This document shows, one piece after another, positions 6,680 to 21,109 of a stretch of DNA of 21,109 nucleotides. Origin of the DNA: a virus (Duplodnaviria > Heunggongvirae > Uroviricota > Caudoviricetes); IMG/VR virus record IMGVR_UViG_2695420876_000008; one strand, written 5' to 3'. Position 1 is the stretch's first letter; each line of letters begins with the position of its first letter. The position numbers and the translations under genes were made by a program. The notes under the pieces are model-generated. The model was given only the letters and a program-made list of their open reading frames with translations, was not told the DNA's origin and made no database searches.

Positions 6680-6699
6680 TTTATCGGAAAGCCGATAAA
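6680..6699. promoter_or_regulatory. 20-bp perfect palindromic operator candidate, TTTATCGG-AAAG-CCGATAAA
   Basis: Perfect 8-bp inverted arms with 4-bp spacer between the divergent cro-like and cI-like genes. Confidence 0.55.
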
Positions 6700-6731
6700 C
6701 TAGCCAAGATAGAGAGGGGAGGAAAATCGCA

Positions 6732-7424: not shown

Positions 7425-7442
7425 GCAAAAATCATTTAACCC

Positions 7443-7468
7443 GCCCACTCTTAAGTGGGCTTTTTTTT
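7443..7468 (+). terminator. Intrinsic terminator after the repressor gene
   Basis: GCCCACT-ctta-AGTGGGC hairpin followed by T8. Confidence 0.7.
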
Positions 7469-7484
7469 GGGAAAAAATCGATAA

Positions 7485-7518
7485 ACCGATTGACAGGTGA
7501 AATCGGTAAACCTATTAT
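7485..7518 (+). promoter_or_regulatory. Candidate pL-like sigma70 promoter overlapped by an operator-like inverted repeat
   Basis: -35 TTGACA (7490-7495), 17-nt spacer, -10 TATTAT (7513-7518); inverted repeat ACCGATT (7485-7491) / AATCGGT (7501-7507); half-sites related to the 6680 palindrome. Confidence 0.5.
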
Positions 7519-7567
7519 CTTGACATAGGTATCGAACTCACCAAAGCAATTATAGAGGATGAGAAAA

Positions 7568-7978
7568 ATGTCATCGTATATGGGATTACCAACAAATCAG
7601 CACGATGCTCTTGAGAATATTCAGCTCTTAGTAGGGACTGGTGCACTACTGTATAGCAGCAATAACCCTGAGTTAATTGAACTTGCCAGCTCCATCCTGG
7701 CTGTAACTCAAAAATATAGCCTCACCGCGTCACGTTTATGCAAACAAAATTTAGCTATTAATTCCCAGAATCGGATTCGCACCCAACGCGAAACCTGCGG
7801 CTTAACAACCGCCGAACTCGCTAGGCTGCTCGATCTCGATGAAGAAATTATCATCCAGTGGGAGAGCGGAGAGTACGAACCAACCATCAGCATGCTTATC
7901 CCTCTGGCTAATGTTCTTGGCTGTGATCCAATGTTGTTATTGACTGATGCTTATAAACAAAATCAGGAGGAAGCATAA
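7568..7978 (+). CDS. HTH_XRE-domain protein (C-terminal HTH, uncharacterised N-terminal domain); first gene after the pL-like promoter
   Basis: C-terminal LTTAELARLLDLDEEIIIQWESGEYEPTISMLIPLANVLG is a Cro/C1-type HTH. Start at ATG 7568 preferred (SD AGAGGA upstream); the track's 7559 is in frame. Confidence 0.65.
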   Translation: MSSYMGLPTNQHDALENIQLLVGTGALLYSSNNPELIELASSILAVTQKYSLTASRLCKQNLAINSQNRIRTQRETCGLTTAELARLLDLDEEIIIQWESGEYEPTISMLIPLANVLGCDPMLLLTDAYKQNQEEA

Positions 7979-7979
7979 G

Positions 7980-8171
7980 ATGAAAATGTTCAAAGGCCTT
8001 ACCAACGAACCGGAGACAACTTTTCATCACATTGCCGTACTGCTTGAAGCGGGGTTAATCATTTCGGCTTCCGGTGATGAAGAATGTGATGAACTTTCGG
8101 ATGATATCTTTTTACTGGCACAACAATACGCCAGAAGCGCATGCGATGCATTTAAGGAGCAAAGAACATGA
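7980..8171 (+). CDS. Hypothetical small acidic protein (63 aa)
   Basis: ATG 7980 with SD AGGAGG about 10 nt upstream (shorter than the track ORF); stop overlaps the next start (ATGA). Confidence 0.5.
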   Translation: MKMFKGLTNEPETTFHHIAVLLEAGLIISASGDEECDELSDDIFLLAQQYARSACDAFKEQRT

Positions 8172-8359
8172 AAACTCCATTAAATATTCTTGAGGAAGTG
8201 GCAGCACAAATAAAAGAGAATACATCAATGCTTGAATTTATATTTAAGAATTCGCCCGACTCAGGAGAGACAGACGATTATTTATGTTGCCTCATTCGCT
8301 CCATGAATAAAACCTGTGAAATGGCTTACGCGTATATCGACACACTGCGCAACGAATAA
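8168..8359 (+). CDS. Hypothetical small protein (63 aa)
   Basis: ATG 8168 with SD AAGGAG 9 nt upstream; translationally coupled to the previous ORF. Confidence 0.55.
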   Translation: MKTPLNILEEVAAQIKENTSMLEFIFKNSPDSGETDDYLCCLIRSMNKTCEMAYAYIDTLRNE

Positions 8360-8543
8360 AGAAAACTCAATAAACAATCACCCATAAAAACATAACGGTC
8401 TCTGGTCGGGAATTTCCACAACCTGAAAATGGTGGTGATGCATGAAAAACAGAAGTGCTTATAAAACCGCATTATTAATGGCTAATGCAGGATACTGGTC
8501 AGTTGCAATACTGTTTCTCAGGAAAGCATACGGGAAATAACAA

Positions 8544-8903
8544 ATGACACATGAACCCATTAATACATATCGTCGCCGTATAGCTGTTGCGGCACTCCAT
8601 CGAATAAAACGTAAAACAGGTGGTAATCTGCTTATTGTTGACCTTCCTGATGGGAACATTACGACCATAGAAATAACTGAACAGTTTATAAACCAGTTGC
8701 TGTTACGCTTCGAAGGTATTACCCGTGGTGAATTGGGCCGGGTGGAGGGTGAAACCGAAATCCACACTGCATACCAGAATGCTATCGGGATTAATCAACA
8801 TACTGAATACCTGACTGAAACCGGAAAGTTAATTATAGACAACCTTTTTCAAGAGATTATTGATTACGCGAAAGAAAAATATATCAGCGGAGGAATTAAC
8901 TGA
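8544..8903 (+). CDS. Hypothetical protein (119 aa)
   Basis: ORF with weak SD; coupled to the next ORF. Confidence 0.5.
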   Translation: MTHEPINTYRRRIAVAALHRIKRKTGGNLLIVDLPDGNITTIEITEQFINQLLLRFEGITRGELGRVEGETEIHTAYQNAIGINQHTEYLTETGKLIIDNLFQEIIDYAKEKYISGGIN

Positions 8904-9118
8904 TGGCTAATTTATCCCCTGTATCTGTTGTGCACGAAAAAGTGCAGATCGTTATGACAATTGAAAATGGCCAAGTCACAGGTGTCTGCAAAGTCCGCGA
9001 TGGCGAGCTGATTGCCAGCATGGATACATTCATACGGCTGGCAGAAAGAGCGGGGTATCAGATAACAGCACCTGCTCAGGAGGAAACCGGTGGCATTAAC
9101 AGCAACACGCATTCCTGA
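8903..9118 (+). CDS. Hypothetical protein (71 aa)
   Basis: ATG 8903 overlaps the upstream stop (ATGA-type coupling); SD GGAGGA 9 nt upstream. Confidence 0.5.
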   Translation: MANLSPVSVVHEKVQIVMTIENGQVTGVCKVRDGELIASMDTFIRLAERAGYQITAPAQEETGGINSNTHS

Positions 9119-9304
9119 GCGGATCCACCGGCAGGCATTGCAGGTCCTGTTGTTGTACCGATGCCGACGGATATTTCCGCATCGGATACAGCGCACCGGA
9201 TATCTCAGTCTGAAGGTTAACCGTCGCTGGCGGCTGTTATCGAAAGACGACGGCCGGAACTGGGAAGTAATGAGTCATGAACGTTATTCGGGAGAAATAA
9301 AGAA

Positions 9305-9697
9305 ATGATCGACAACCGCACCGCCAGCACCATTGACCAGGCATTACAGAAACATGATACACCCGTCGGCCCGTTATTTTTTGTAACACGCCACGGAAGA
9401 ACAAAAAAATGCCTCACCCGAAAAACGGCAATTCGTTACCTAGCATTCTTTATGACCACCCGCGCTTTTGAACGTTCAGGATTCCGACAACGCTATCCTG
9501 ACAAGCGTTTTATCTTCAACAGGAATGAGATATGGAAACGTGGAGAATCAACCACAGAGTATACCCGCGCACACCAGCGAACAATCAGACGACTGCGCAG
9601 ACTCATCGCCAGGAAACAGTATACAGAAAAATGGTTCAGAAAATATGACACATGGAGCGCCGGATATTACGAACTGATGGCAACAAAACCATTCTGA
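9305..9697 (+). CDS. Hypothetical basic protein (130 aa, Arg/Lys-rich C-terminus)
   Basis: ORF MIDNRTASTIDQ...; SD GGGAGA about 11 nt upstream. Confidence 0.45.
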   Translation: MIDNRTASTIDQALQKHDTPVGPLFFVTRHGRTKKCLTRKTAIRYLAFFMTTRAFERSGFRQRYPDKRFIFNRNEIWKRGESTTEYTRAHQRTIRRLRRLIARKQYTEKWFRKYDTWSAGYYELMATKPF

Positions 9698-9757
9698 CGT
9701 AAACGAAATTAACCATGACGCAATTAAATAAGGCAAGCCGAATACATCAGGAGGACC

Positions 9758-9946
9758 ATGAACATTTATTTCAGAATAGTTATATCACTGGCAATTATCA
9801 CATGTATTTACGGATTAATCGTTCCGGCCCTCATATCAATGAAGGATACGGTAGCAGTGATTTCTGGCTTTGCTCTGGCGTGTCTGACCCCGCCCTGCAT
9901 TTATGCCATTTATAAGGGTCTTTCTTTTTCTAAGGATAAAAGATGA
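9758..9946 (+). CDS. Small membrane protein (62 aa, two predicted TM helices), first gene of the SPFH operon
   Basis: Strong SD AGGAGG 4-6 nt upstream; hydrophobic segments IVISLAIITCIYGLIVPALI and VISGFALACLTPPCIYAIY; stop overlaps the SPFH start (ATGA). Confidence 0.6.
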   Translation: MNIYFRIVISLAIITCIYGLIVPALISMKDTVAVISGFALACLTPPCIYAIYKGLSFSKDKR

Positions 9947-10770
9947 AAAAATTACTTTTTGCTTTAGCCCTTGTTCTGCCGACCATTGGCCTTGTCGGTT
10001 GCGATCGCGTTGAGCCTGGTAATGTGGGCATCAAAGTAAACAAACTGGGCGACGATAAAGGCGTCGGTGAAGTGGTCGGTGTTGGGCGCTACTGGACGGG
10101 ATGGAACACTGAGGTTTACATCTTCCCGACCTTTAAGCAGATGAAGACCTACGATGATCCATTCAGTTTCCAGATGAGTGACGGTACAACCATCGGCTAT
10201 CACATCGGCGTGGCCTACAAAGTTGATCCATCCAAAGTTACCACAGTCTTTCAGACCTACCGCAAAGGCGTGGACGACATTACCGACACCGACCTGCGCC
10301 AGAAGATAGCCGACGCACTCAACCGACTGGCCAGCAAAATGACCACCGACAAATTTATCGACGGCGGCAAGTCTGAGCTGCTGGATGCAGCTCTTAAAGA
10401 CATTCAGGAAGAAATGACGCCCATCGGTATTCAGGTAATGAGCCTCTCATATGTGGGTAAGCCGGAGTACCCACCTACTGTTATCGACAGCATTAATGCC
10501 AAAGTCACGGCGAACCAGAAAACCCTGCAACGCGAGCAGGAAGTAAAACAGCGCGAAGCGGAAGCCAACATGTTGCGCGCGGAAGCTGCCGGACAGGCAG
10601 ATGCGATTCGCACAAAAGCCCAGGCCGAAGCCGATGCTATTCGTTTACGCGGTGAAGCTCTGCGCCAGAACCCCGGTGTTATGGAGCTGGAAGCCATCAA
10701 CAAGTGGAACGGTACACTGCCGCAATACATGACCAGCGGTGCCAACACACCATTTATTCAGGTTAAGTAA
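9943..10770 (+). CDS. SPFH/band-7 (stomatin/prohibitin-like) lipoprotein
   Basis: Lipoprotein signal MKKLLFALALVLPTIGLVGC (lipobox LVGC); SPFH-like core followed by an Ala/Glu/Gln-rich coiled-coil tail (EQEVKQREAEANMLRAEAAGQADAIRTKAQAEADAIR); SD AAGGA. Confidence 0.85.
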   Translation: MKKLLFALALVLPTIGLVGCDRVEPGNVGIKVNKLGDDKGVGEVVGVGRYWTGWNTEVYIFPTFKQMKTYDDPFSFQMSDGTTIGYHIGVAYKVDPSKVTTVFQTYRKGVDDITDTDLRQKIADALNRLASKMTTDKFIDGGKSELLDAALKDIQEEMTPIGIQVMSLSYVGKPEYPPTVIDSINAKVTANQKTLQREQEVKQREAEANMLRAEAAGQADAIRTKAQAEADAIRLRGEALRQNPGVMELEAINKWNGTLPQYMTSGANTPFIQVK

Positions 10771-10813
10771 TACATATGCCCGGTATTACACGCCGGGCTG
10801 TCTGGAGATAAAA

Positions 10814-11563
10814 ATGAATATTGTAACCATCAACAACAAACAGTTTCCGGTAATCGAATATCGCGGTCAGCGTGTTGTGACATTTGCAATAATTGATGAC
10901 GTCCACCAGCGCCCGGAAGGTACCGCCCGTGCTGCGTTTAACCGCAACCGTTCTCACTTTATCGAAGGGGTGGATTTTCTTGAAATGACTGCGGACGTAA
11001 TACGTACGGAGTCACTTTCTGATGCCTTTGCCGCGCGAACTGCCAAAGGGATCATTCTTTTCGAGTCTGGTTACCTGATGTTGACGAAGCCTTTTAACGA
11101 TGCTCTTGCATGGCAGGTTCAGCGCGAACTGGTTAACAGCTATTTCCGAACTCACGCGCCGCTGACGGAAATGGAGATGATCGCTGCAATGGCCGCCGAT
11201 GCCGTTCGCCAGCAGAAGCGCCTGAGTCATGTTGAAGAGAAGATCGAAACGGTCACCAAAGCTGTGGAGAACATCAAACGCGGCACAATGCGCACCGGAT
11301 ATGTCGGTTACCGCCAGGTGGTAGCCAAAAGCGGAATGAGTGACGCCAAGTGTCGGAATCTGGTCAACGCCTACCACATCCCTACCGACACGCACGAATT
11401 TATGACTCCGGACGGTCTGTTGTCTCGCAGGGCTGTCGTCGAGCTTGAGACATTTATGGCGGCGTTCCACCAAATGATGTCAGAGGCTGAACCACGCGGC
11501 ACACGCTGGTATCACCCGAAGATGGGGCTTTTTCAGGTAATCGGATGGGAGGATAAAGCATGA
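10814..11563 (+). CDS. ORF6N-domain phage regulatory protein (antirepressor-like N-terminus)
   Basis: N-terminus FPVIEYRGQRVVTFAIIDDVHQRPEGTARAAFNRNRSHFIEGVDFLEMT fits the ORF6N pattern as recalled; ATG 10814 with SD TGGAGA. Confidence 0.7.
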   Translation: MNIVTINNKQFPVIEYRGQRVVTFAIIDDVHQRPEGTARAAFNRNRSHFIEGVDFLEMTADVIRTESLSDAFAARTAKGIILFESGYLMLTKPFNDALAWQVQRELVNSYFRTHAPLTEMEMIAAMAADAVRQQKRLSHVEEKIETVTKAVENIKRGTMRTGYVGYRQVVAKSGMSDAKCRNLVNAYHIPTDTHEFMTPDGLLSRRAVVELETFMAAFHQMMSEAEPRGTRWYHPKMGLFQVIGWEDKA

Positions 11564-12128
11564 TCATCCAGTCAAAACTTATTCGCGCCGCTCTGGTGTG
11601 CGCTGCTAAAAACGACGTTCGTTATTACCTGAACGGTCTTCACATCACGCCAAAACATATTGAGGCAACCAATGGTTTCGTAGCACTGCGCATGACTCAC
11701 GGCATCCGGACGAAGAAAAACATCATTGTCCAGTTCGAAGGTGGCGTCCCGGCCAAAGCCGAAACGACAGAGCTGATTTTTAGTAAAGAGCCGATCCTGT
11801 TCATCGCGACCAGTTTCAGCGCCGGCTGTCCATTACCGGCATTAAATTGGTGGACGGTTGTTTTCCGGATTTGGAACGCATCATTCCGAAAAAATTTGAC
11901 CTCTGTACACACCCGGTGATCCAGGCGGGTTACCTGAGTTATCCAGAGAAGATGTTTGGTCGTGAGCGTAAATTTATTCCCGTCCAGTTACGTTCCTCCG
12001 GTGACGGGCAAGCGGTCAGAATTCAGTTTGATTCCATCATCAACTCAATGTATGGCAATCCTGAATTTGTTGTGATGCCTTGTCGTGATCATGGCGATTT
12101 CAATGTGGCTCAGGAGCATCCGGAATGA
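11560..12128 (+). pseudogene. Sliding-clamp (DnaN domain II-III)-like mini-clamp gene, split by a -1 frame break around 11817-11835
   Basis: Frame A (11560-11919) contains DVRYYLNG and ATNGFVALRM; frame B (open from 11787 to 12128) contains IKLVDGCFPDLERIIPK and ends EFVVMPCRD. These align in order with E. coli DnaN segments DVRYYLNGM, ATDGHRLAV, KLVDGRFPDYRRVLPK and AAYVVMPMRL (from memory). Strong SD GGGAGG at the start. Confidence 0.6.
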
Positions 12129-12163
12129 AAATCGAATACCAGGACGCCGCAGGAGGTGAATCA

Positions 12164-12247
12164 ATGAGCTGGCCTGATGCAATCGTAACTCTGGGGGTGG
12201 TATTCGCAGTAGCGTTTGTTGTGTTCTCAATTTGTCGATGGGGATAA
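12164..12247 (+). CDS. Candidate small hydrophobic peptide (27 aa, single TM)
   Basis: ATG 12164 with SD AGGAGG 8 nt upstream; MSWPDAIVTLGVVFAVAFVVFSICRWG; below the ORF-track size cutoff. Confidence 0.3.
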   Translation: MSWPDAIVTLGVVFAVAFVVFSICRWG

Positions 12248-12251
12248 CCAC

Positions 12252-12494
12252 ATGTTCGCTTTGATTCAACGCGGTCAGATATACACGGACAGAGCCGGAT
12301 ACCCCGTGGTGATTACTCGCATCACTGAGCACTCAGTGTTCTTTCGACGGATGGACGGACGATCCGGGCGGGTACGCATTGGTGAGTTAAACTGCCTGTT
12401 CGAACATATTGACCACCAGGAGTACCGCAAAATTCTCGCGGACACTGAGCAGGAAAAGCACCTGAAAAAATTACGAGCCATAAAAAGGAAGTAA
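12252..12494 (+). CDS. Hypothetical protein (80 aa)
   Basis: ATG 12252 (MFALIQRGQIYTDRAGYPVV...) inside the longer track ORF; SD GGGGA upstream. Confidence 0.5.
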   Translation: MFALIQRGQIYTDRAGYPVVITRITEHSVFFRRMDGRSGRVRIGELNCLFEHIDHQEYRKILADTEQEKHLKKLRAIKRK

Positions 12495-12497
12495 AGA

Positions 12498-12644
12498 ATG
12501 AATAAAGCATTTGAACAATGGGTCCACCAGCGTTACGGCAATCGCTATGACCTGACGCGAGATGTTGACGGCTTCTACTGTCGTGAAGTTGTGAAGCGAA
12601 TGTTTGACGTGTGGTGCCACTGCCGTGGGCTGAGTGTTATGTGA
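12498..12644 (+). CDS. Hypothetical small Cys-rich protein (48 aa)
   Basis: ATG 12498 with SD AAGGAAG 8 nt upstream; MNKAFEQWVHQRYGNRYDLTRDVDGFYCREVVKRMFDVWCHCRGLSVM. Confidence 0.4.
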   Translation: MNKAFEQWVHQRYGNRYDLTRDVDGFYCREVVKRMFDVWCHCRGLSVM

Positions 12645-12652
12645 GGTGATGT

Positions 12653-12862
12653 ATGGGGCTGGATTGCGTGCCTATATCAACCTACTGCCGCGACGCGGGA
12701 GAAACGGTTGATGCCGTTAACAAACGGATACAAAGAGGAATATGGAAAGAAGGGGTTCATGTATTAAAAGTCGACGGAGTTAAAGAACGCTGGGTCGACT
12801 TAATAGAGGTTTCAAAATGGGCAAGAAAGAACAAGGATTATTATCTCTGCCAAGAGGAGTAA
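12653..12862 (+). CDS. Excisionase-like protein (Xis candidate)
   Basis: Small ORF immediately upstream of and overlapping the integrase start (classic xis-int arrangement); SD GAGGTGA upstream. Confidence 0.5.
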   Translation: MGLDCVPISTYCRDAGETVDAVNKRIQRGIWKEGVHVLKVDGVKERWVDLIEVSKWARKNKDYYLCQEE

Positions 12863-13942
12863 CTATTCGTAAGCATAAAACTGCTTCAACACTAGTTATC
12901 ACTTTCACATATAAAGGGGTTCTTTGCAGGGAGCCCCTGTCTCGGCTTGAGGCAAATACACGTGGTATTAAATATGCTGAGCGCCTGCTAGGGGAGATAC
13001 AAAATCAGATCGCCAGCGGAACGTTTGAATATGCGAAATATTTCCCCAGTTCCAAAAAACTGGAGTTATTCGGTGTAGTAAAGAAAACCAAAAATATTAA
13101 GTCCTATCTTGATGAATACCTGAAAATTTGCATGAACCGCAATCTGTCGCCGTCAACCATTGGCGGTTACGAAAAATGTCTATCAGCACTATCAGAACTA
13201 CATAAACTACATGTAACAGAATTGACGCCTGCGGTACTAAAAAATTGGATAGCCAGCCGAAAAACTAAGCTGAAAACAATCAGGAATAACCTGTCATTTC
13301 TGCGCAGCGCCATTGATGAGGCTGTAACTGATGGCCTGTTGACTATTAACCCGGTAACTCTTGTCAGCGCCAGCCGGTATCACGTGGTCGACAGGTGCCA
13401 TATATCAGCACTGCAAGTATCAGGAATGGCAGAATCTGTTCCGCTTCGCCTTCAATACAGGGCTACGCAGCTCTGAGCTATGCGCATTACGTTGGACCGA
13501 TATCGACTTTATAGGTAATACAGCGCACATACAGGCGGCCAGTGTCGTAGGGGTACTTAAAGGCACCAAGACAAAAGCCGGTACCCGTAAGGTGGAGCTG
13601 AACAGTGAGGCGCTGGCGGCCCTGCAGGCGCAGAAGCAATACACCTTTATGAAAAGTGAGTTCATATTCAGCGATCCGAAAACGGGAGATCCCTGGACGA
13701 ACGCCGACGCTATCCGTAAAAAAGCATGGGTGCCGACCCTGAAAAAAGCTGGTGTGCGCTACCGTAACCCGTACCAGACGCGCCACACATTCGCCACCAG
13801 ACACATTAGCCAGGGTGTAAACCTTTTCTGGCTTGCCGGGCAGATGGGGCATAAGGGGCCGGAAATGCTGTTCCGCAATTACGGTAAATACCTGGCTGAA
13901 TACGACGGGAAAACCGCAATGGAATCTGGAATGAAGAAGTGA
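12817..13942 (+). pseudogene. Lambda-family tyrosine integrase, split by a +1 frame break around 13365-13400
   Basis: ORF 12817-13476 has an arm-binding-type N-terminus (LPRGVTIRKHKTASTLVITFTYKGVLCREPL) and core-binding region; ORF 13361-13942 in the +1 frame has the catalytic domain (FAFNTGLRSSELCALRWTDIDF, YQTRHTFATRH, GHKGPEMLFRNYGKYL). Confidence 0.8.
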
Positions 13943-13955
13943 TTTGAAGAAAAAA

Positions 13956-13978
13956 CCCGGCAAATGCCGGGTCTTTTT
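13956..13978. terminator. Bidirectional intrinsic terminator between convergent int and the 255-aa gene
   Basis: A-run, CCCGGCA-aa-TGCCGGG hairpin, then TCTTTTT. Confidence 0.6.
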
Positions 13979-13983
13979 GATGG

Positions 13984-14751
13984 TTATTCTGTCGCGCCAC
14001 CTATCGAAACATAATCATGAAATTGATCGTCAATGAGTCGGTCCTTACAGATAACATGTACAATGTGACGACAACAGTTTTCATCATCATACGCACGACC
14101 CCAGCGAACAATCTCATCTACAGACAGATCATTCGCACTCCATGGCAAAGTACCTGAAACGCCACGCGCACCTGGACCAAGTATGTCCATAAATTTCTTC
14201 GTGCGTGAATTGTAGATCCGTACCTCGGCAATTCGAATGATGCTACTAGCCCAAAGAGCACCACCGGCAATACTTTGAATGTTATCGCAGATGAGAAACT
14301 CATGCTTTCGCGCAAGCATTTTATAGATCTCACGCGCCAAACCTGCTGATTGGAAATCCTGTGCGATAACAGCGCTTTTCACTTGCTTTCCGGTCATCAT
14401 CTGACCGTTCTCTTCGATAAAATTAAAGTCGTTGAACTGTATACGACCTATTCTTATCGTTTTGTTATCGTCTACCATATCAAGACCCAAGAGGGTATTG
14501 ACCAGATCCTGCATTGGAACCTTCGAATCAAGAAGGTCACTGCCATAGTCTAAAAAAAAGTCGTCGGTGGAACATCCCAGTTGATACACATCCAAGTAGT
14601 ACTGAAACTCACCAGAACTGACAATGTACTCATCAGCCCTCAGTAAGCCAGCCTCGGCAGTGAAAAAATAGAATGACTCAATAAGACGTTTTTCGCCAAA
14701 TGGCGTAATGTTCAAGTCCTTGTTATATGAAGGTATTAACGCAGGAGCCAT
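13984..14751 (-). CDS. Hypothetical protein (255 aa), second gene of the int-proximal cargo cassette
   Basis: ORF with ATG 14751, 11 nt after the stop of the upstream 113-aa gene; no family recognised. Confidence 0.6.
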   Translation of the reverse strand: MAPALIPSYNKDLNITPFGEKRLIESFYFFTAEAGLLRADEYIVSSGEFQYYLDVYQLGCSTDDFFLDYGSDLLDSKVPMQDLVNTLLGLDMVDDNKTIRIGRIQFNDFNFIEENGQMMTGKQVKSAVIAQDFQSAGLAREIYKMLARKHEFLICDNIQSIAGGALWASSIIRIAEVRIYNSRTKKFMDILGPGARGVSGTLPWSANDLSVDEIVRWGRAYDDENCCRHIVHVICKDRLIDDQFHDYVSIGGATE

Positions 14752-14762
14752 TCAGCAACCTT

Positions 14763-15104
14763 TTAATGGTAGTTAATTTCCCTGTAGTTCTTCTGCATGT
14801 ATAGAGCAATTGCCGCTTCAATTTTCTTCAGCAGATTACTGCTTACATACTGAGGATACTGATCTGCTGGCTTCACAACATAGCGCAATTTTTCTTTGTT
14901 CATGGCGATCTCAGCGAACGGGATCACGTCACCGTCACGAACCTCATTGTTCAATGTCACAATAAACAGCTGACGTGCCGGGGAGACACGATCACTCAGT
15001 CTTCTCACGAAGAACTCGTTTGCTGTGTTTGAGTCAACAAAAGAACTGACGAGTTGAGTCCGACGCTCAATCGTCTGTATCGATCTTCTCGCTACTGTTC
15101 TCAT
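14763..15104 (-). CDS. Hypothetical protein (113 aa), first gene of the int-proximal cargo cassette
   Basis: ATG 15104 with SD GAGGAG 8 nt upstream; no family recognised. Confidence 0.6.
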   Translation of the reverse strand: MRTVARRSIQTIERRTQLVSSFVDSNTANEFFVRRLSDRVSPARQLFIVTLNNEVRDGDVIPFAEIAMNKEKLRYVVKPADQYPQYVSSNLLKKIEAAIALYMQKNYREINYH

Positions 15105-15120
15105 GCTAGTCTCCTCAACA

Positions 15121-15244
15121 CTTCACTGGCTGTGCAGTGAAGGTACAAAAAGCCACTGATGATAACAGCGTCATCAGTGGCCCTTGATGGTGATAACCGC
15201 AGTTACCTAAATAGTATGATATTACCTTACGGGTAATTCTTCAA
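15121..15244 (-). promoter_or_regulatory. Structured leader of the cargo cassette: candidate promoter, terminator-like hairpin with U-tract, and a second hairpin abutting the SD
   Basis: Minus strand: -35 TTGAAG (plus 15239-15244), 17-nt spacer, -10 TATCAT (plus 15216-15221); 10-bp perfect stem CCACTGATGA/TCATCAGTGG (15153-15180) followed by CTTTTT; second stem CTTCACTG/CAGTGAAG (15121-15142) directly upstream of the SD. Confidence 0.4.
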
Positions 15245-15434
15245 CGATTGCTCTGAATTGAATAGTCTTGAAGTGCTATGAACAGCACAAAACAGCGCTA
15301 ATCACCGCCCCAGTGGCGCCTAAACACTTCAAAATGTTGGACAGAATCAGGACGTTAGAGGTACTACAATATGCACGTAAAATGCACGTGAGGTATTTTA
15401 AATTAGAAAAATCATTAATATTCAATTGGTTAAG

Positions 15435-15474
15435 AATTTTTCGGATACGGGTTCAACTCCCGCCAGCTCCACCA
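15435..15474 (+). other. ssrA (tmRNA) 3'-terminal fragment: T-arm plus acceptor 3' strand plus CCA; att-site duplicate, not an intact gene
   Basis: ...CGGATACGGGTTCAACTCCCGCCAGCTCCACCA matches my recollection of the E. coli tmRNA 3' end; no tmRNA 5' body (GGGGCTGATTCTGG...) is present upstream. Confidence 0.6.
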
Positions 15475-15508
15475 CTTTTTAGTTGTTTGAAGTTCAATGA
15501 AGTCTACT

Positions 15509-15542
15509 AAGCCCACACAGCACAAGCTCTGCGGGCTTTTTT
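15509..15542 (+). terminator. Candidate intrinsic terminator downstream of the ssrA fragment
   Basis: AAGCCC...GGGCTT imperfect long hairpin followed by T6. Confidence 0.4.
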
Positions 15543-15639
15543 ACGTCTATTGTCGTCCAGTGAGAATTGCTGAGAACTACGAGTTATGGCACCCTGAATG
15601 GGACCCACTAAGAAGGGTCCAAAAACCGAGGGTCCCAAA

Positions 15640-16869
15640 ATGGCAAAAATCGCTAAGAAGCTCACTGACACTGAAATCAAAAGCACCAAGCCAGCCGATA
15701 AAGAAATCAACTTGTTTGACGGTGATGGTCTGATTCTACGAATCGCTCCTTTGGCGAAAGGAGGCAAGAAAAATTGGTATTTCAGGTATGCAGTACCAGT
15801 GAGCAAGAAAAGAACCAAAATGAGCCTTGGGACATATCCTCACCTTACCCTTGCAAGAGCCAGAGCCTTACGTGATGAATATCTCTCCTTTCTGGCAAAT
15901 GGTGTTGATCCCCAAATCCATAACAACGATAAGGCGAAGGCATTAAAGAGTGCTACTGAGCACACTCTCCAAGCCGTAGCGCGGAAATGGTTAGATGAGA
16001 AGGTAAAGACATCAGGTATCTCACAAGACCATGCAGCAGACATCTGGCGCAGCTTAGAGAGAAATGTCTTTCCCGGTCTGGGTAATGTCCCTATCAATGA
16101 GATCCGACCTAAGCTCTTAAAACAACACCTTGATCCTATTGAGCAACGAGGCGTATTGGAAACTCTACGCCGTATCATTTCACGTCTGAATGAAATCTTC
16201 CGGTGGGCAGCTACTGAAGAACTTATTGAGTTCAACCCGGCTGACAACCTTGGTCAAAGATTCAGTAAACCAAAAAAGCAAAATATGCCTGCCCTTCCCC
16301 CAAGCGAATTGCCAAGGTTTATGGAATCTTTGACGAATGCGTCAATCCGGTTGGAAACACGTATGCTAATTGAATGGCAATTGTTGACATGGGTTCGTCC
16401 GGGTGAAGCCGTTCGCGCAAGGTGGTCTGATATTGATACAACCAACAGCATTTGGAACATTCCTGCTGATTTCATGAAAATGAAAAAGCTTCACAAAGTT
16501 CCTTTGAGTAAAGAAGCTTTGCGCATCCTTGAATTAATGAAATCAATAAGTGGGCATAGAGAATGGGTTTTCCCCAGCATAAAAGCGCCTCTTAATCATA
16601 TGCATGAACAAACAGCCAACGCAGCTATCATCCGAATGGGGTTCGGAGGCGAGCTTGTAGCTCACGGTATGCGTTCTATTGCACGAACAGCGGCAGAGGA
16701 GTCTGGTAAATTCAGAGCTGAAGTTCTTGAGGCAGCGCTTGCCCACTCGAAAAAAGATGAAATTATCGCAGCATACAATCGTGCAGAATATCTGATAGAG
16801 CGACAGAGTTTGATGCAATGGTGGAGTGATTACGTTCAAGCTCAAAGATCAAATGCTCTGGTAGCCTAA
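15640..16869 (+). CDS. P4-family tyrosine integrase (IntA/CP4-57-like, tRNA/tmRNA-site class)
   Basis: MAKIAKKLTDTEIKSTKPADKEINLFDGDGLILRIAP... N-terminal arm-type domain and C-terminal catalytic domain (HGMRSIARTAA, ...AYNRAEYL); lies directly downstream of the ssrA 3' fragment; start at ATG 15640 with SD GAGGG, not the track's 15598. Confidence 0.85.
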   Translation: MAKIAKKLTDTEIKSTKPADKEINLFDGDGLILRIAPLAKGGKKNWYFRYAVPVSKKRTKMSLGTYPHLTLARARALRDEYLSFLANGVDPQIHNNDKAKALKSATEHTLQAVARKWLDEKVKTSGISQDHAADIWRSLERNVFPGLGNVPINEIRPKLLKQHLDPIEQRGVLETLRRIISRLNEIFRWAATEELIEFNPADNLGQRFSKPKKQNMPALPPSELPRFMESLTNASIRLETRMLIEWQLLTWVRPGEAVRARWSDIDTTNSIWNIPADFMKMKKLHKVPLSKEALRILELMKSISGHREWVFPSIKAPLNHMHEQTANAAIIRMGFGGELVAHGMRSIARTAAEESGKFRAEVLEAALAHSKKDEIIAAYNRAEYLIERQSLMQWWSDYVQAQRSNALVA

Positions 16870-16907
16870 GTATCAGAATAGCTAATATAATCCTGAAGGT
16901 AAAGAAA

Positions 16908-17324
16908 ATGGAAACCCTATTCAAAGTTTTTGAAAAATTTAGTTCCAGACCACTTTTTTTTATTTTTTTCGGACTCTCACTTTGTGAATTTTTTCAGAAA
17001 CAATCTGTTCTGATGAATCCATCAGCAGATAACATCGCGAAATTATTCGCAGCCATGATATTAGTTGTTTTTTTTACTTGGGGATTTGAATGGCTAATCT
17101 TCAAGTTCAATGTAAACCTTGAACCTCATGATCAAGGCGATATTGGACCAACAATTGGAACGGCTACTTTAGCTGTATACTTAGTTTATGCCTTTCACTT
17201 TCTCAGTGAAAATCCTGAAGCATTAAATTTAAAGTTATTAACTAACTCTGGCTTTATATACAGCACAACTCTATTATTATTCTCATTAGAATGCATGAAG
17301 CTTAGAAGACTTAAACAAAAATAA
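16908..17324 (+). CDS. Hypothetical multi-pass membrane protein (138 aa), AT-rich island
   Basis: ORF with several hydrophobic helices (PLFFIFFGLSLCEFF, LFAAMILVVFFTWGFEWLIF, ATLAVYLVYAFHFL, IYSTTLLLFSL). Confidence 0.6.
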   Translation: METLFKVFEKFSSRPLFFIFFGLSLCEFFQKQSVLMNPSADNIAKLFAAMILVVFFTWGFEWLIFKFNVNLEPHDQGDIGPTIGTATLAVYLVYAFHFLSENPEALNLKLLTNSGFIYSTTLLLFSLECMKLRRLKQK

Positions 17325-17395
17325 ACAACATCATTGTGATGATAAATATAAAATAGGCATGGCGAAAAAAAATCACCACGCCTAAAATATAATAA

Positions 17396-19144
17396 TTATG
17401 GTAGCATCATTGATACATAATCCACACCAATCCTTGAGCTATACTGAGACGCTATAGCCTGATATCTTTCTGCATAACCAGTTCTCAGTTGAGATTTAAG
17501 TTTGAGTCGGACAGGAACATTTTGCACGTTGCCATCCATATTACTTAAAAACACGGCAGAAATAATATTTTTTTCTTCGCCATCAACTGTTGTTCCATGA
17601 TTCAACACCACCATATAATCAACAACAGGAAGCGTTTTATCCCCTTCGAAAATAGAGAGATATTTTCTTTGATTTTTATGCATTACATATATATATTTCG
17701 AATGTTCAGCAAATGGCAATGCTTTACTCTGACTGGCGTTAAAAAGCTCCAGAACTTTAATGAGCCTGTGCGGACTTAATCTTACATGGTGAGGGTCGTT
17801 ACCCTGAGTAGGAACCAAATCACATGCCGCAGATACACATAAATACCATTTGTTCGACTCTGTATCAAAGAAAATAGTGCCAGTAGAAATATGACCATCT
17901 TCAAAATTCTTTGAAGACAAATTCATATTTAAAGCATGATACATTTCGTGATAAGTATCATTATTTGATGGCAGATCCATTTTTGAAGAGCAATATTGGA
18001 GCAATGCAGCAACTCCGCTGTTAGCGTATTCATTTGAATAGCTATCAAAAACACTTTTGATAAATTCATCCAGCGTATTATTATTTTTAAGTCTTTGATA
18101 AAGCTCTTCTGATAAATTACCAAATACAAAGTCAATATTTCTACATCTAATATCAGGCGAGTCTGATTTTAATATCTCATTTAACCACGCAGCTTGACCG
18201 TAATGATCGTTAGCCAAATGATTTACAAAAGATAAAGCCTCAGCTTCGATTGCATTCTGAATTTCAGATTTTATTAACTGATAATAAGATGGTTTCCATT
18301 CAATGAGAGAATCATTGAGAGTTTGCCAAATCCTATCTCCATCGTTTTCATGATCATCTTGAACCTTATGAAATAGGGAGACAAAGATATTACCACATTG
18401 AATCCATTTTACTCCGCTTTCATCACCCCGAATGACATTGCCAGATGTGTTGCTAGAAATAATTGCATTTCTAGACACAGCATATTCTGCAATCATTTTT
18501 GCAATGAAGTTTTTATCCTTTTGTTCCTCCAACACAGCATCATCATGTATTAATCTTTTAATTCTTCTACAAGGCTTACTGTCTTTAATATAGGCTATTG
18601 TTTCATCTCTTGTGAGAGCTTTATTACCATTATCATTTAAGTTCGGTAATACAACGTCTTCCCAATAACTTTGGACATCTTCATTATCGTAGTCAATGAT
18701 CAAGCTGTTGATATCCAGAGCACCTTTGAGAGTCGATGATATCTGCATCCAAACCGTTTCTAAATTCTCTCTAGTATATATTACAATCATATTTAAATGA
18801 TCGGAGTCTTTCAAATCTTGTAATAGTTTAAGTGTTTTATCAGGTGCATTATTATCAAGATGATAATCTACAATAATAAGATCTGATTTTCTAATCCGAT
18901 CCACATCGAAATTAACAGAACCATTGTCAACATCACAAATCATATTTTTAGATTGAAAAAAGCTCTCAAGAGTAGCGGCTCGTTTAGATGAGTCAATTTT
19001 GTTGTAGTCTAAATCAACTTCGTTATTCAACGCCCTGATTGATTCAGAATACGTCAGAAAATCGTCATCAATCATGACAACGGAACGAATTGCATTTTCG
19101 CAGAAAGTTTTCTGGACAAGAGAATTATAATTTGCCACTGTCAT
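17396..19144 (-). CDS. Receiver (REC-like) domain protein fused to a ~430-aa C-terminal domain of unknown function; no DNA-binding output domain recognised
   Basis: N-terminal REC-like motifs VVMIDDD, DLIIVDYHL, MIVIYT; large uncharacterised C-terminal region. Start at ATG 19144 preferred (SD GGAG upstream; one nt after the kinase stop) over the track's 19162. Confidence 0.7.
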   Translation of the reverse strand: MTVANYNSLVQKTFCENAIRSVVMIDDDFLTYSESIRALNNEVDLDYNKIDSSKRAATLESFFQSKNMICDVDNGSVNFDVDRIRKSDLIIVDYHLDNNAPDKTLKLLQDLKDSDHLNMIVIYTRENLETVWMQISSTLKGALDINSLIIDYDNEDVQSYWEDVVLPNLNDNGNKALTRDETIAYIKDSKPCRRIKRLIHDDAVLEEQKDKNFIAKMIAEYAVSRNAIISSNTSGNVIRGDESGVKWIQCGNIFVSLFHKVQDDHENDGDRIWQTLNDSLIEWKPSYYQLIKSEIQNAIEAEALSFVNHLANDHYGQAAWLNEILKSDSPDIRCRNIDFVFGNLSEELYQRLKNNNTLDEFIKSVFDSYSNEYANSGVAALLQYCSSKMDLPSNNDTYHEMYHALNMNLSSKNFEDGHISTGTIFFDTESNKWYLCVSAACDLVPTQGNDPHHVRLSPHRLIKVLELFNASQSKALPFAEHSKYIYVMHKNQRKYLSIFEGDKTLPVVDYMVVLNHGTTVDGEEKNIISAVFLSNMDGNVQNVPVRLKLKSQLRTGYAERYQAIASQYSSRIGVDYVSMMLP

Positions 19145-19145
19145 A

Positions 19146-19982
19146 TTAGAACTCCACTCCATTGAACTGGATCACAAAATTAGCGCCATCTTTTATTAAA
19201 TAGTTATCGCCTTCATCAGGTTCTGAATACCATATTTTATGATGTGCAACAGCAAGGTTTTCTCGACATAGATACAGACCTACCCCATGTCCATTTGCTC
19301 TTTTGCTATAAAATAGTTCAAATAGTCGCGGGATATCATCGGTATCAATTGCCGGACCAGAATTTGCTATGATAACCAAAGAATTCACAAAACCAATCTT
19401 TATGAGCCTATTATTTGACAGACTGACCCAATACATTGCATTGTTGATAATATTAGTAAAAACAGGATAGATCCTTGATGGTATATCTGTTATTGCGATT
19501 TGCTTAAACTCTTCACTAAATTCAATAGTTATTCGTTGCCGTTCGAAACGCTCCCCAAAGAACTTCAGGACATAATCCATGATATTTTTTCCAGTTATTC
19601 TCTGCCTGGATTGATAACCTGATATTTTCAAAGGTGATAAGAAACGTATTTGTTGAGTAAGCGATCTGTGAGCATTTAACGCCAATGAAAAACCAGGGTG
19701 TTCTTTTACAGAAGTAGGAAGAGAGTTTAGTCCTCTGGTTACCATAGAATCCATTTCTTCAAGTTCATGAGATATTATCTCAACACTAATACCTAACTGT
19801 GCAAGCGCGTTTAAACTTTTAGCTTTTTCTTCAAAATATGAGCGTTCTTCTTCAGATAATGAGAATGCTGAATCTAAGTTTATACCTTCAAATAATCTAT
19901 CGAGACCTTTTATTATTGATTGATATTTGAAAGTTAGGGTATCAACTGACTCAACATATAAACTATCGAGCAAATTAAACAC
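19146..19982 (-). CDS. Histidine kinase core (DHp H-box + HATPase_c), cytoplasmic; start uncertain
   Basis: H-box ISHELEEMDS; N-box YPVFTNIINNAMYW; G1-like IANSGPAIDTDD; G2 GHGVGLYL. No ATG near the 5' end (track start is GTG); the frame stays open upstream to 20111. Confidence 0.7.
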   Translation of the reverse strand: MFNLLDSLYVESVDTLTFKYQSIIKGLDRLFEGINLDSAFSLSEEERSYFEEKAKSLNALAQLGISVEIISHELEEMDSMVTRGLNSLPTSVKEHPGFSLALNAHRSLTQQIRFLSPLKISGYQSRQRITGKNIMDYVLKFFGERFERQRITIEFSEEFKQIAITDIPSRIYPVFTNIINNAMYWVSLSNNRLIKIGFVNSLVIIANSGPAIDTDDIPRLFELFYSKRANGHGVGLYLCRENLAVAHHKIWYSEPDEGDNYLIKDGANFVIQFNGVEF

Positions 19983-20059
19983 ATTTTCAATTTGTGAATC
20001 ATTATCTATTGAATCAACAACTGATATAGTTTTAGCATAATAATCACTTCGATCAACCT

Positions 20060-20863
20060 TTATTTCATCGGCCCATTTTTTAAAAGAGAATGTATCTTCT
20101 CCTCTATCGTGTTATTAAACTTAGTTAGTTTAGAATTAATAATACCTTGATTTTTTTCAAGGTGATTTTTCGCTGACAATGAAGGCTCAAGTTTATTTAA
20201 TTCAGAATCAAGTTTATTAATTGCTAACTTCATTTGTAGAATATACGCAGAGAACTCATTAAATTTATCTCTGTAGTCTCTATATTTCTCTTCATACATT
20301 CCAAGTTTTGGAGGTTTGATAGGCGTTTTAATTTCACTGCGCAACGCATCTAAGTTTGTAAGATCACTGTCTATAATTTTAAGATAGTTTAAATCTAACG
20401 AACCATCAGTTTTATCAAGCTTAGTTTTCAGCCTTTTAACAGCCTCCAAGGAAGCATCAAGAACTGGTGTCTGATTCTTCAAAGCTTCTGAAAAACTTTT
20501 TTGTGTTGATTTTCGAGCTTGTTGTTGAGCAGATTTTCTTAACTCTTTTTCACGCTTAACTTGTTCTAAAAGCTCTTTACGGTCATCAGAACGTGAACCA
20601 AAAAATCTATCAGCAAGTTCAGTTAACAAATTAGATATAATAGTTTTCAGTTCTCTTGCAGCCTGGTTTCTTATGAATCCCTCTCTCCCCGACTTATCTT
20701 TCAGCTCTTTATTACTGGATTGAGTAATTCCAATATAACCAAAAATCCTTCTATTAGACCAATAATATCGCCCTGCATTCCATGAACGTCTTTCTTCTAT
20801 CTGGAAGAAATCATTATCTACTCGACCATAAGGTAATACTCTCAAGCTATCCCTAAAAATCAT
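20060..20863 (-). CDS. Coiled-coil-rich protein (267 aa); probably the N-terminal/linker part of the adjacent sensor kinase, itself likely 5'-truncated
   Basis: ORF starts at ATG 20863, but the frame is open for 42 more codons upstream, up to the IS3 junction at 20985; K/E-rich heptad-like sequence; separated from the kinase frame at the run CTTTTAAAAAATGGG (20071-20085). Confidence 0.5.
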   Translation of the reverse strand: MIFRDSLRVLPYGRVDNDFFQIEERRSWNAGRYYWSNRRIFGYIGITQSSNKELKDKSGREGFIRNQAARELKTIISNLLTELADRFFGSRSDDRKELLEQVKREKELRKSAQQQARKSTQKSFSEALKNQTPVLDASLEAVKRLKTKLDKTDGSLDLNYLKIIDSDLTNLDALRSEIKTPIKPPKLGMYEEKYRDYRDKFNEFSAYILQMKLAINKLDSELNKLEPSLSAKNHLEKNQGIINSKLTKFNNTIEEKIHSLLKNGPMK

Positions 20864-20984
20864 TAGTCCTGCATACTTTTTGGCCTTAAGATCAAAGTGG
20901 GAATGTTCACGTTCAGTATGTGATGTATTTTGTGAAAGGAATTCAAACGTTCCTATCTGAAGCTCAAATGGGCCGACCCCTGCG

Positions 20985-21109
20985 TGATCCTACCCACGTA
21001 ATATGGACACAGGCCTAAGCGAGGTTCTTGTTTTCAAATTGTTCCGGACTGAGGCCGCCACACCAACTGTGCCGCCGCCACCGATTGTAATCACATTCGA
21101 TATAATTAA
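20985..21109 (-). mobile_element. IS3-family insertion sequence, terminal ~125 bp (terminal inverted repeat TGATCCTACCCACGTAATATGGACAC...); remainder beyond the right edge
   Basis: Terminal repeat begins at 20985; minus-strand 21109-21015 encodes ...[30 protein letters not shown], which matches my recollection of the IS3 transposase (InsF/OrfB) C-terminus; abrupt GC shift relative to the AT-rich island. Confidence 0.7.
21015..21109 (-). CDS. IS3-family transposase (OrfB/InsF-like), C-terminal 30 codons; 5' part beyond the window
   Basis: Hand translation of the minus strand gives [30 protein letters not shown] followed by TAG at 21017-21015. Confidence 0.65.

What the first reader, a model, noticed from the sequence alone, without database searches (positions are those of the whole stretch)
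20060..20111. Frame break at a T4A6 run separates the coiled-coil ORF from the kinase core
The kinase frame is open upstream to 20111 with no ATG (the track start is GTG 19982), and the 267-aa ORF ends at 20060. The two frames cross at CTTTTAAAAAATGGG, so a single-base length change in the A-run would fuse them into one sensor kinase (coiled-coil linker into DHp, as in canonical kinases). It could be a sequencing error, a pseudogenising mutation, or a phase-variable switch.
Basis: seen in the sequence. Interest (0 to 1): 0.45.

Follow-up and report, generated by a model that had tools for sequence, protein, structure and literature searches.

The report
One-base frameshift in a decaying kinase gene
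The frame break is real: one A has been lost from a run of seven inside a kinase-like gene that an IS3-linked deletion had already beheaded, so this is ordinary pseudogene decay and not a genetic switch.

Summary
On the minus strand a 267-aa ORF (20863..20060) and the kinase-core frame (open from 20111, stop at 19146) overlap at a T4A6 run (A6 = 20076-20081).

Across 2,010 bases the window differs from typical E. coli genomes by one base: they have A7, which gives a single 572-aa ORF. Of 561 complete E. coli genomes with the locus, 537 carry the exact A7 81-mer, 4 carry A6 and none carries A8. RefSeq marks the A6 allele "frameshifted".

The 572-aa ORF is itself a stump. Near-identical (99%) orthologues are single 988-aa proteins with an N-terminal HATPase_c_3 domain, a HEF_HK domain and a C-terminal HATPase_c domain. 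They sit between a C-5 DNA methylase and a Response_reg_2 protein. In E. coli an IS3-linked deletion removed the methylase and about 375 codons.

The A6 allele is real (117 contigs) and heritable, and it arose at least three times. A second A7 run 70 bases away decays equally often (105 contigs). The same stump also carries a nonsense mutation, deletions and IS1/ISKpn26 insertions in other strains. I found no support for phase variation, programmed frameshifting or a natural two-protein arrangement.

Interest is low.

The parts
20076..20081 (-). A6 run, the lesion itself. It is A7 in 537 of 561 E. coli complete genomes and in the intact 988-aa gene.
20082..20085 (-). T4 run directly 5' of the A run on the coding strand. 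With the A run it forms the in-frame heptamer U_UUA_AAA (20084-20078) in the A6 allele.
   Evidence: read from the sequence
20060..20111 (-). Zone where the two reading frames overlap. Any event that fuses the frames must lie here.
20060..20863 (-). 267-aa ORF. It equals residues 417-678 of the 988-aa orthologue plus a 5-residue out-of-frame tail (NGPMK). Its ATG is the internal Met417.
20864..20984 (-). In-frame codons with no start codon (about residues 376-416 of the 988-aa protein), running up to the IS3 edge.
19146..19982 (-). 278-aa GTG ORF, the kinase core (residues 711-988). No Shine-Dalgarno-like sequence lies before the GTG.
19623..19799 (-). HEF_HK (PF19191) DHp-like domain, with the H-box SHELEE.
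   Evidence: 27.4 bits against a cut-off of 24.1; alignment to ThkA 3a0r
19206..19481 (-). HATPase_c (PF02518) catalytic ATP-binding domain.
   Evidence: 45.7 bits against a cut-off of 26.4
17396..19144 (-). Partner gene, 582 aa. It has an N-terminal Response_reg_2 (PF19192) receiver domain and about 400 C-terminal residues with no assigned domain. Its ATG lies 1 nt after the kinase stop.
20985..21109 (-). Terminal 125 bases of IS3 (TGATCCTACCCACG...). There is no 3-bp target duplication, which marks an IS3-linked deletion that removed the 5' part of the kinase gene and the methylase gene.
20151..20157 (-). Second A7 run in the same gene, intact in this window. It serves as an internal control: its A6 allele is found in other strains at a similar frequency.

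Best explanation
This is a heritable one-base deletion (A7 to A6, most likely by replication slippage) in a gene remnant. It is not a regulatory device.

The ancestral gene encodes a 988-aa soluble kinase-like protein with an N-terminal HATPase_c_3 (paraMORC-type GHKL ATPase) domain, a long helical middle, a HEF_HK DHp domain and a C-terminal HATPase_c domain. It sits in an operon between a C-5 cytosine DNA methylase and a Response_reg_2 protein, on an integrative island.

In the E. coli lineage that carries the island between ssrA and glaH, an IS3-linked deletion removed the methylase and the first ~375 codons. That left a 572-aa ORF starting at the internal Met417.

In this window a second hit shortened the A7 run at codons K678-K679. 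Translation then ends 5 codons later (stop at 20062-20060), and the DHp plus catalytic core are left in the -1 frame without a usable start.

Shown here: the lesion, its ancestral state, the truncation, recurrence of the lesion, and equal decay at a control run. Inferred: slippage as the mutational mechanism, loss of kinase-core expression, possible polarity on the downstream receiver gene, and relaxed selection as the cause.
For: 1. The lesion. One base in the run is the only difference from A7 genomes over 2,010 bases. Of 561 complete E. coli genomes with the locus, 537 have the exact A7 81-mer, 4 have the exact A6 80-mer and 0 have A8. RefSeq annotates the identical allele as 'ATP-binding protein, frameshifted' and the A7 allele as a 572-aa protein, WP_000577254.1.

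2. The ancestral gene. Orthologues at 99% identity in Salmonella, Klebsiella and Serratia are single 988-aa proteins that are colinear through HSLLKKWADEIK. They contain HATPase_c_3, HEF_HK and HATPase_c. The intact Salmonella gene has A7 at this site. All 21 aligned orthologues, down to 61% identity, are gap-free here.

3. The truncation. The intact island reads integrase, 138-aa protein, 582-aa receiver protein, 988-aa kinase, C-5 methylase, and further on a relaxase. Homology to the window stops at 20985, within codon 376. The IS3 flanks are TCT and CGC, so there is no target duplication.

4. A real, inherited, recurrent allele. The exact 267-aa product is on 117 contigs from NCBI, Logan and ENA. 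The window is 99.97-99.99% identical to an independent assembly, L008. Trees from the flanking glaH-gabD region and island haplotypes place A6 on at least 3 backgrounds, each with an A7 counterpart. One is a tight clade in which all members are A6.

5. The run is not special. The neighbouring A7 run (20151-20157) has an A6 allele in 2 of 561 complete genomes and on 105 contigs, against 4 of 561 and 117 contigs for the focal run.

6. Other lesions in the same stump. Other strains carry Q483* (CAG to TAG), a 10-bp deletion, two 5' deletions, an IS1 insertion with a 9-bp duplication, an ISKpn26 insertion and a T5A8 variant. The receiver gene is also frameshifted in several strains.

7. Position of the break. 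It falls in the middle of a predicted long helix (residues 239-284 of the 572-aa form), not at a domain boundary.
Against: No reads are available for this window, so an error in this particular assembly cannot be excluded formally.

96% of complete genomes keep the 572-aa ORF intact. That could mean the stump still does something, although the very low diversity (34 variable columns in 4.9 kb across 26 loci) fits recent origin equally well.

Recurrent hits at one site could reflect selection for inactivation rather than neutral decay. The data here cannot separate the two.

One of the four complete A6 genomes (LR130532) is a noisy assembly with many frameshifts, so its A6 may be an error.
Confidence: 0.9

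Rival explanations
1. Sequencing or assembly error. The strain really has A7 and the homopolymer was miscalled in this window.
For: Homopolymer miscalls are common in long-read assemblies. One A6 complete genome (LR130532) has frameshifts in the receiver gene, the IS3 and a neighbouring gene. Strain C311 shows both runs lengthened, T5A8.
Against: The exact A6 product occurs on 117 contigs from several sources, including draft assemblies, SRA-derived assemblies and metagenomes. A 99.97-99.99% identical independent assembly (L008) has the same A6. A tight clade from different hosts and countries is uniformly A6.
Confidence: 0.05
2. Phase-variable contingency switch. The A run toggles the kinase on and off at high frequency.
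For: The run lies in a gene linked to a DNA methylase in intact islands, a setting where homopolymer switches are known in other bacteria (my own knowledge). A6 arose at least three times. One +1 variant exists, although the neighbouring T run is lengthened in the same genome.
Against: The tract is short (7). Counts are 537 A7, 4 A6 and 0 A8. The A6 clade is stable, with no A7 members. A control A7 run 70 nt away varies just as often. The K-K codons, and so the run, are absent from orthologues at 73% identity or below. The gene is already truncated and has lost its methylase. Non-reversible lesions hit the same stump.
Confidence: 0.03
3. Functional recoding or a functional split. Either the A6 allele is read through by a -1 ribosomal or transcriptional slip on U_UUA_AAA_A, or the two ORFs act as separate helical and kinase-core proteins.
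For: In the A6 allele the 0-frame heptamer U_UUA_AAA (20084-20078) is a formal X_XXY_YYZ site. A -1 slip there would recreate exactly the wild-type LLKKW (read from the sequence). Some leak is therefore plausible.
Against: The downstream 81 nt fold no better than shuffles (z = +0.85, with 159 of 200 shuffles folding at least as well). The ancestral state is in frame, and no orthologue has the two-frame layout. The kinase core has only a GTG start with no Shine-Dalgarno-like sequence, and promoter-like sites are at the chance level (5 found against 4.7 expected). The break lies in the middle of a predicted helix.
Confidence: 0.02

Closest known systems
HEF_HK / Response_reg_2 two-component-like pair (Bellieny-Rabelo, Pretorius & Moleleki 2021, PMC8011034)
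   Same: HEF_HK and HATPase_c are present in the kinase frame, and the adjacent gene carries Response_reg_2 with a 1-nt gap between them. Intact relatives have the predominant 'group 1' architecture (HATPase_c_3 + HEF_HK + HATPase_c) and an upstream C-5 methylase, as that paper reports.
   Different: This copy lacks the N-terminal HATPase_c_3 domain and the methylase because of an IS3-linked deletion, and it is also frameshifted. The paper's 'group 2' class (no N-terminal domain) may partly consist of truncations like this one. That is my inference and was not tested.
paraMORC GHKL ATPases of restriction-modification systems (Iyer, Abhiman & Aravind 2008, PMC2292703)
   Same: The intact orthologue has an N-terminal GHKL ATPase and sits next to a DNA methylase on a mobile island. 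Its N-terminus also gives a weak, below-cut-off match to a BbrUII/HgiDII restriction enzyme model.
   Different: The paraMORC1-5 families as described there have an S5 domain and no histidine-kinase module or receiver partner. The paper does not contain the word 'receiver'.
Ordinary homopolymer frameshift pseudogenes in enterobacterial islands
   Same: There is a single-base loss in a short A run of an AT-rich (35% GC) horizontally acquired gene. It accompanies IS insertions, a nonsense mutation and deletions in the same gene in other strains. The annotation pipeline flags it as 'frameshifted'.
   Different: Nothing substantive.
Simple-sequence contingency loci (phase-variable methylase and restriction genes of Haemophilus, Neisseria, Helicobacter) - from my own knowledge
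   Same: A homopolymer lies inside a coding region of a module linked to DNA modification.
   Different: Those tracts are usually longer, vary in both directions among close relatives, and sit in intact genes. Here the tract is 7 bases, 96% of genomes are identical, a control run behaves the same way, and the gene is a remnant.
Programmed -1 frameshifting such as dnaX A_AAA_AAG - from my own knowledge
   Same: The A6 allele has a formal slippery heptamer and needs a -1 shift.
   Different: There is no stimulatory structure, no conservation of the two-frame layout, and the ancestral gene is in frame.

Membership tests
HEF_HK histidine-kinase-like family (PF19191 architecture) | HEF_HK domain scoring above Pfam's gathering score | tested here: met
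   27.4 bits against a cut-off of 24.1 in the kinase frame of the window; 25.3 bits in the 988-aa orthologue
HEF_HK histidine-kinase-like family (PF19191 architecture) | Core His followed by an acidic residue in helix 1 of the DHp | tested here: met
   SHELEE is present. H366 and E367 are invariant across 22 sequences. The criterion is as described in PMC8011034.
HEF_HK histidine-kinase-like family (PF19191 architecture) | C-terminal HATPase_c catalytic domain | tested here: met
   45.7 bits against a cut-off of 26.4; aligns to the ThkA sensor kinase 3a0r/3a0t
HEF_HK histidine-kinase-like family (PF19191 architecture) | N-terminal HATPase_c_3 (paraMORC-type) domain, as in the predominant group 1 architecture | tested here: not met
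   It is absent from the window: homology to the intact gene begins within codon 376, at the IS3 edge. It is present in the 99%-identical 988-aa orthologue.
HEF_HK histidine-kinase-like family (PF19191 architecture) | Adjacent Response_reg_2 gene | tested here: met
HEF_HK histidine-kinase-like family (PF19191 architecture) | One uninterrupted reading frame for the kinase | tested here: not met
   A -1 frame break at the A6 run
HEF_HK histidine-kinase-like family (PF19191 architecture) | Autophosphorylation and phosphotransfer to the receiver protein | not testable with these tools
   No biochemical data were found. PMC8011034 is purely computational.
Phase-variable contingency locus | Frequent tract-length variation in both directions among close relatives | tested here: not met
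   537 exact A7, 4 A6, 0 A8 and 1 T5A8 among 561 genomes. The A6 clade is uniform.
Phase-variable contingency locus | The tract is more variable than comparable runs in the same gene | tested here: not met
   Control A7 run: 2 of 561 genomes and 105 contigs. Focal run: 4 of 561 and 117 contigs.
Phase-variable contingency locus | Measured reversible on/off switching | not testable with these tools
   This needs fluctuation assays or deep sequencing of clonal cultures.
Programmed -1 ribosomal frameshift | Slippery heptamer X_XXY_YYZ in the 0 frame | tested here: met
   U_UUA_AAA at 20084-20078 in the A6 allele (read)
Programmed -1 ribosomal frameshift | Downstream stimulatory RNA structure | tested here: not met
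   Minimum free energy -9.6 kcal/mol against a shuffle mean of -12.1; z = +0.85
Programmed -1 ribosomal frameshift | Two-frame layout conserved in orthologues | tested here: not met
   All orthologues are in a single frame, and the K-K codons are not conserved at 73% identity or below.

The most novel reading that the evidence does not exclude
The repeated, independent knock-outs of this stump may not be neutral. They include A6 at two different A7 runs, an amber codon, deletions and IS insertions. An orphan kinase and receiver-effector pair that has lost its methylase and its N-terminal ATPase sensor could be deregulated and costly. Loss-of-function alleles would then be selected, with the A7 runs as the easiest route. 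A weaker variant of this reading is that the A6 allele keeps a low level of full-length protein through -1 slippage on U_UUA_AAA.
Probability: 0.1. Interest if true: 0.35.

Novelty: already known. Interest (0 to 1): 0.1.

Why it matters
It matters mainly for annotation. The 267-aa "coiled-coil" ORF and the 278-aa "kinase" ORF should not be treated as two genes. NCBI sources name the 278-aa product a HAMP-domain histidine kinase, although no HAMP domain was found here. Both ORFs are fragments of one gene that was inactivated twice.

The wider context has some interest. The intact methylase, paraMORC-kinase and receiver module is widespread on mobile islands and has been described only computationally. 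It gave no match in PADLOC. The E. coli copies are remnants and are a poor choice for functional study. The 988-aa Salmonella, Klebsiella or Serratia versions are the ones to test.

Tried and rejected
- **PADLOC scan** of the 988-aa orthologue and the receiver protein: no meaningful hit.
- **NCBIfam**: only sub-threshold kinase and restriction-enzyme matches.
- **Look-up of the 572-aa form from Pectobacterium (P0079)**, to see whether other genera have the same truncation: not on record, so this is unresolved.
- **IS1 hypothesis.** I suspected a common IS1 insertion explained why the 278-aa product is so much more abundant than the 267-aa product (1,556 against 169 index blocks). The junction search found it in only one complete genome, so I rejected that idea. 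The real cause is a set of other lesions.
- **tRNA/tmRNA scan** of the window: nothing found.
- **Promoter-like sites** near the break: at the chance level.
- **Sequence search of the PDB** with the receiver protein: no hit.

Full report
**1. Observation**

The genes at this end of the window are on the minus strand.
- A 267-aa ORF runs from ATG 20863 to the TAA at 20062-20060.
- A 278-aa ORF runs from GTG 19982 to the stop at 19148-19146.
- Translating all three minus-strand frames shows the kinase frame open from 20111, just after TAA TAA at 20117-20112. It has no in-frame ATG before the GTG.
- In the 52-base overlap the coding strand reads ...CAT TCT CTT TTA AAA AAT GGG CCG ATG AAA TAA. This contains T4 (20085-20082) followed by A6 (20081-20076).
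- The kinase frame is -1 relative to the upstream ORF. Adding one base to the run gives a single open frame.

**2. What the ancestral state is**

A megablast of window 19100-21109 against 5,426 complete E. coli genomes found 559 genomes covering at least 80% of it. Aligned to one of them, the only difference in 2,010 bases is one extra T in the plus-strand T run, which is A7 on the coding strand.

I counted alleles with short queries across the site:

| Allele | Complete genomes (of 561 with the site) |
|---|---|
| Exact A7 81-mer | 537 |
| Exact A6 80-mer | 4 |
| Exact A8 82-mer | 0 |
| T5A8 (strain C311) | 1 |

RefSeq annotates the A7 allele as a 572-aa "ATP-binding protein" (WP_000577254.1). 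It annotates the allele identical to this window as the same gene, "frameshifted".

**3. The fused ORF is itself a stump**

It also found 975-998-aa proteins down to 61% identity in Yersinia, Aeromonas and Acinetobacter.
- The 572-aa E. coli form aligns without a gap to residues 417-988. The alignment runs straight through HSLLKKWADEIK.
- The full protein has HATPase_c_3 (residues 28-137), HEF_HK (772-830) and HATPase_c (878-969).
- Its residues 759-969 align to the Thermotoga sensor kinase ThkA.
- The window's kinase frame contains HEF_HK and HATPase_c. The upstream 304 residues match no Pfam family.
- The ATG of the 267-aa ORF is therefore the internal Met417. The frame stays open upstream of it to the IS3 end.

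**4. How the 5' part was lost**

In intact Salmonella islands the gene order is: integrase, 138-aa protein, 582-aa Response_reg_2 protein, 988-aa kinase, C-5 cytosine DNA methylase (its end overlaps the kinase start), then further genes including a relaxase.
- The window matches this island at 98.9% identity from 15439 to 20985 and no further. The match ends within codon 376.
- At 20985 the terminal repeat of IS3 begins.
- The bases flanking IS3 are TCT on one side and CGC on the other. There is no 3-bp target duplication, which points to an IS3-linked deletion rather than a simple insertion.
- Some strains (L004, O45:H2 L020, O111 L021) lack the IS3 but have the same truncation. Their junction lacks IS3 plus about 21 flanking bases.

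The methylase and the N-terminal ATPase domain are thus missing from every E. coli locus I examined.

**5. Real allele or error?**

- The exact 267-aa frameshift product is recorded on 117 contigs from NCBI, Logan and ENA, spread over 169 index blocks.
- The window is 99.97-99.99% identical to an independent draft assembly (GCA_001285845.1, locus L008) that has the same A6.
- One of the four complete A6 genomes (LR130532) is visibly noisy, with frameshifts in three neighbouring genes, and may be an error.
- The others are not noisy in that way. Two of them (CP087578 and CP159455) fall in a tight clade with two further assemblies.

**6. One origin or several?**

I aligned 4.9 kb of the island from 26 loci and 4.8 kb of the flanking glaH-lhgO-gabD region from 18 loci. 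A6 sits on at least three backgrounds.
- **Clade of L001, L005, L007 and L014.** Members differ by 1-3 SNPs, and the A7 sister L022 is 6-8 SNPs away. These four loci, and also L010 and L013, share a split island integrase.
- **L004.** It has 0 flank SNPs from the A7 strain L020, and shares with it an island SNP and the IS3-less junction.
- **L006 and L009.** Their island haplotype (four linked variants) is shared with the A7 strain L003.

The deletion therefore recurred, and where it occurred it was stably inherited.

**7. Is the run special?**

No. The same gene has a second A7 run 70 bases upstream, at 20151-20157.

| Run | A6 allele in complete genomes | Contigs with the exact truncated product |
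|---|---|---|
| Focal (20076-20081) | 4 of 561 | 117 (267-aa product) |
| Control (20151-20157) | 2 of 561 | 105 (245-aa product) |

The kinase-core ORF is called as a separate 278-aa protein in 1,556 index blocks, far more than the focal A6 allele explains. Inspecting ten such loci showed other lesions in the same stump:
- an amber codon (CAG to TAG, Q483 in full-length numbering);
- the control-run A6;
- a 10-bp deletion;
- two 5' deletions;
- an IS1 insertion with a 9-bp duplication at 20105-20113;
- T5A8;
- in another strain, an ISKpn26 insertion.

The receiver gene is frameshifted in several strains too. This is the pattern of a remnant decaying by many routes.

**8. Tests of the more interesting readings**

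- **Conservation of the run.** The K-K dipeptide that allows the A7 run occurs only in orthologues at 82% identity or above. More distant ones have SK, AK, EN, SS or SI there, always without a gap. The run is not a conserved feature.
- **Position of the break.** An AlphaFold model of the 572-aa form has moderate confidence (mean pLDDT 65.8). It predicts residues 57-327 as long helices. The break at K262/K263 falls in the middle of helix 239-284, where local pLDDT is about 80, and not at a linker. It argues against a natural split point.
- **Recoding.** In the A6 allele the 0-frame heptamer U_UUA_AAA (20084-20078) is a formal -1 slippery site, and a slip there would regenerate the wild-type LLKKW. 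That follows from the sequence alone. The 81 nt downstream fold no better than shuffles (z = +0.85). Since the ancestral gene is in frame, any read-through would be incidental leak.
- **Independent expression of the core.** No Shine-Dalgarno-like sequence precedes GTG 19982. Promoter-like matches are at the chance level, 5 found against 4.7 expected.

**9. What the system is**

The pair belongs to the HEF_HK / Response_reg_2 two-component-like family. That family was described computationally as soluble, linked to C-5 methylases and restriction-modification genes, and related to paraMORC ATPases (PMC8011034; background in PMC2292703).
- Its C-terminal ~400 residues match nothing in Pfam, in PDB sequences or by Foldseek.
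- The family is not in PADLOC.
- I found no experimental work on it.

**10. Verdict**

This is a genuine, heritable, recurrent one-base deletion in an A7 run of a gene that an IS3-linked deletion had already truncated. It is a frameshifted pseudogene, already flagged as such in RefSeq. The "switch" and "error" options are not supported, and the larger truncation was missed. Interest is low.

Noticed in passing
window 20985-21109 and junction at 20984/20985: The IS3 end abuts the kinase remnant with no 3-bp target duplication (flanks TCT and CGC). This marks an IS3-linked deletion that removed the C-5 methylase gene and about 375 codons of the kinase. Some strains (L004, L020, L021) lack the IS3 but keep the truncation; their junction lacks IS3 plus about 21 flanking bases.
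   Followed up: yes
window 20151-20157: A second A7 run lies in the loop of a 7-bp inverted repeat (ACCTTGA/TCAAGGT). It is intact here, but its A6 allele gives a 245-aa product on 105 contigs and occurs in 2 of 561 complete genomes, about as often as the focal run.
   Followed up: yes
loci L033-L042, L031, L032 (E. coli relatives of window 19146-20984): The same kinase stump carries many independent lesions in other strains: amber Q483*, a 10-bp deletion, two 5' deletions, IS1 (9-bp duplication CTATCGTGT at window 20105-20113), ISKpn26 and T5A8. The exact 278-aa core product is indexed in 1,556 blocks, against 169 for the A6-specific 267-aa product.
   Followed up: partly
window 17396-19144 (minus strand): The receiver protein has about 400 C-terminal residues with a confident predicted fold (pLDDT 84.7 for the whole protein) but no Pfam, PDB-sequence or Foldseek match. 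Conserved motifs include CVSAACD and SQLRxGYAERYQ. This is presumably the output or effector domain of the system.
   Followed up: partly
window 17396-19162: The longest ORF for the receiver gene (588 aa, ATG 19162) overlaps the kinase stop. RefSeq uses ATG 19144 (582 aa), 1 nt after the kinase stop. The intact Salmonella operon has the same 1-nt spacing, which suggests translational coupling.
   Followed up: partly
window 13394/13395: Relative to the near-identical assembly L008, the window lacks 53 bp inside the prophage integrase gene, with CAG microhomology at the ends. This splits the gene into two overlapping ORFs (12817-13476 and 13361-13942).
   Followed up: partly
window 1-15438: This is a lambdoid prophage-like region (helicase, repressor-like, SPFH and integrase genes by similarity to annotated E. 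coli genomes) next to the island. No tRNA or tmRNA gene was found in the window, although related loci place ssrA just beyond the island integrase.
   Followed up: no
proteins P0079-P0088: Proteins of 564-572 aa at 82-84% identity are annotated in Pectobacterium, Klebsiella, Salmonella, Yersinia ruckeri, Morganella and Shigella; most are exactly 572 aa, the length of the E. coli stump. Whether these are independent 5' truncations or start-site calls could not be checked, because the look-up was not on record.
   Followed up: partly
window 19146-19982 product: NCBI sources name the exact 278-aa product 'HAMP domain-containing histidine kinase'. No HAMP domain was found by Pfam, only HEF_HK and HATPase_c. 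The name looks like an annotation artefact.
   Followed up: partly
loci L026-L029 (Salmonella): The intact island carries a relaxase and extra integrases. It sits next to a BapA-like giant adhesin and type I secretion genes, not at the E. coli ssrA-glaH site. The module therefore travels on an integrative mobilisable element.
   Followed up: no
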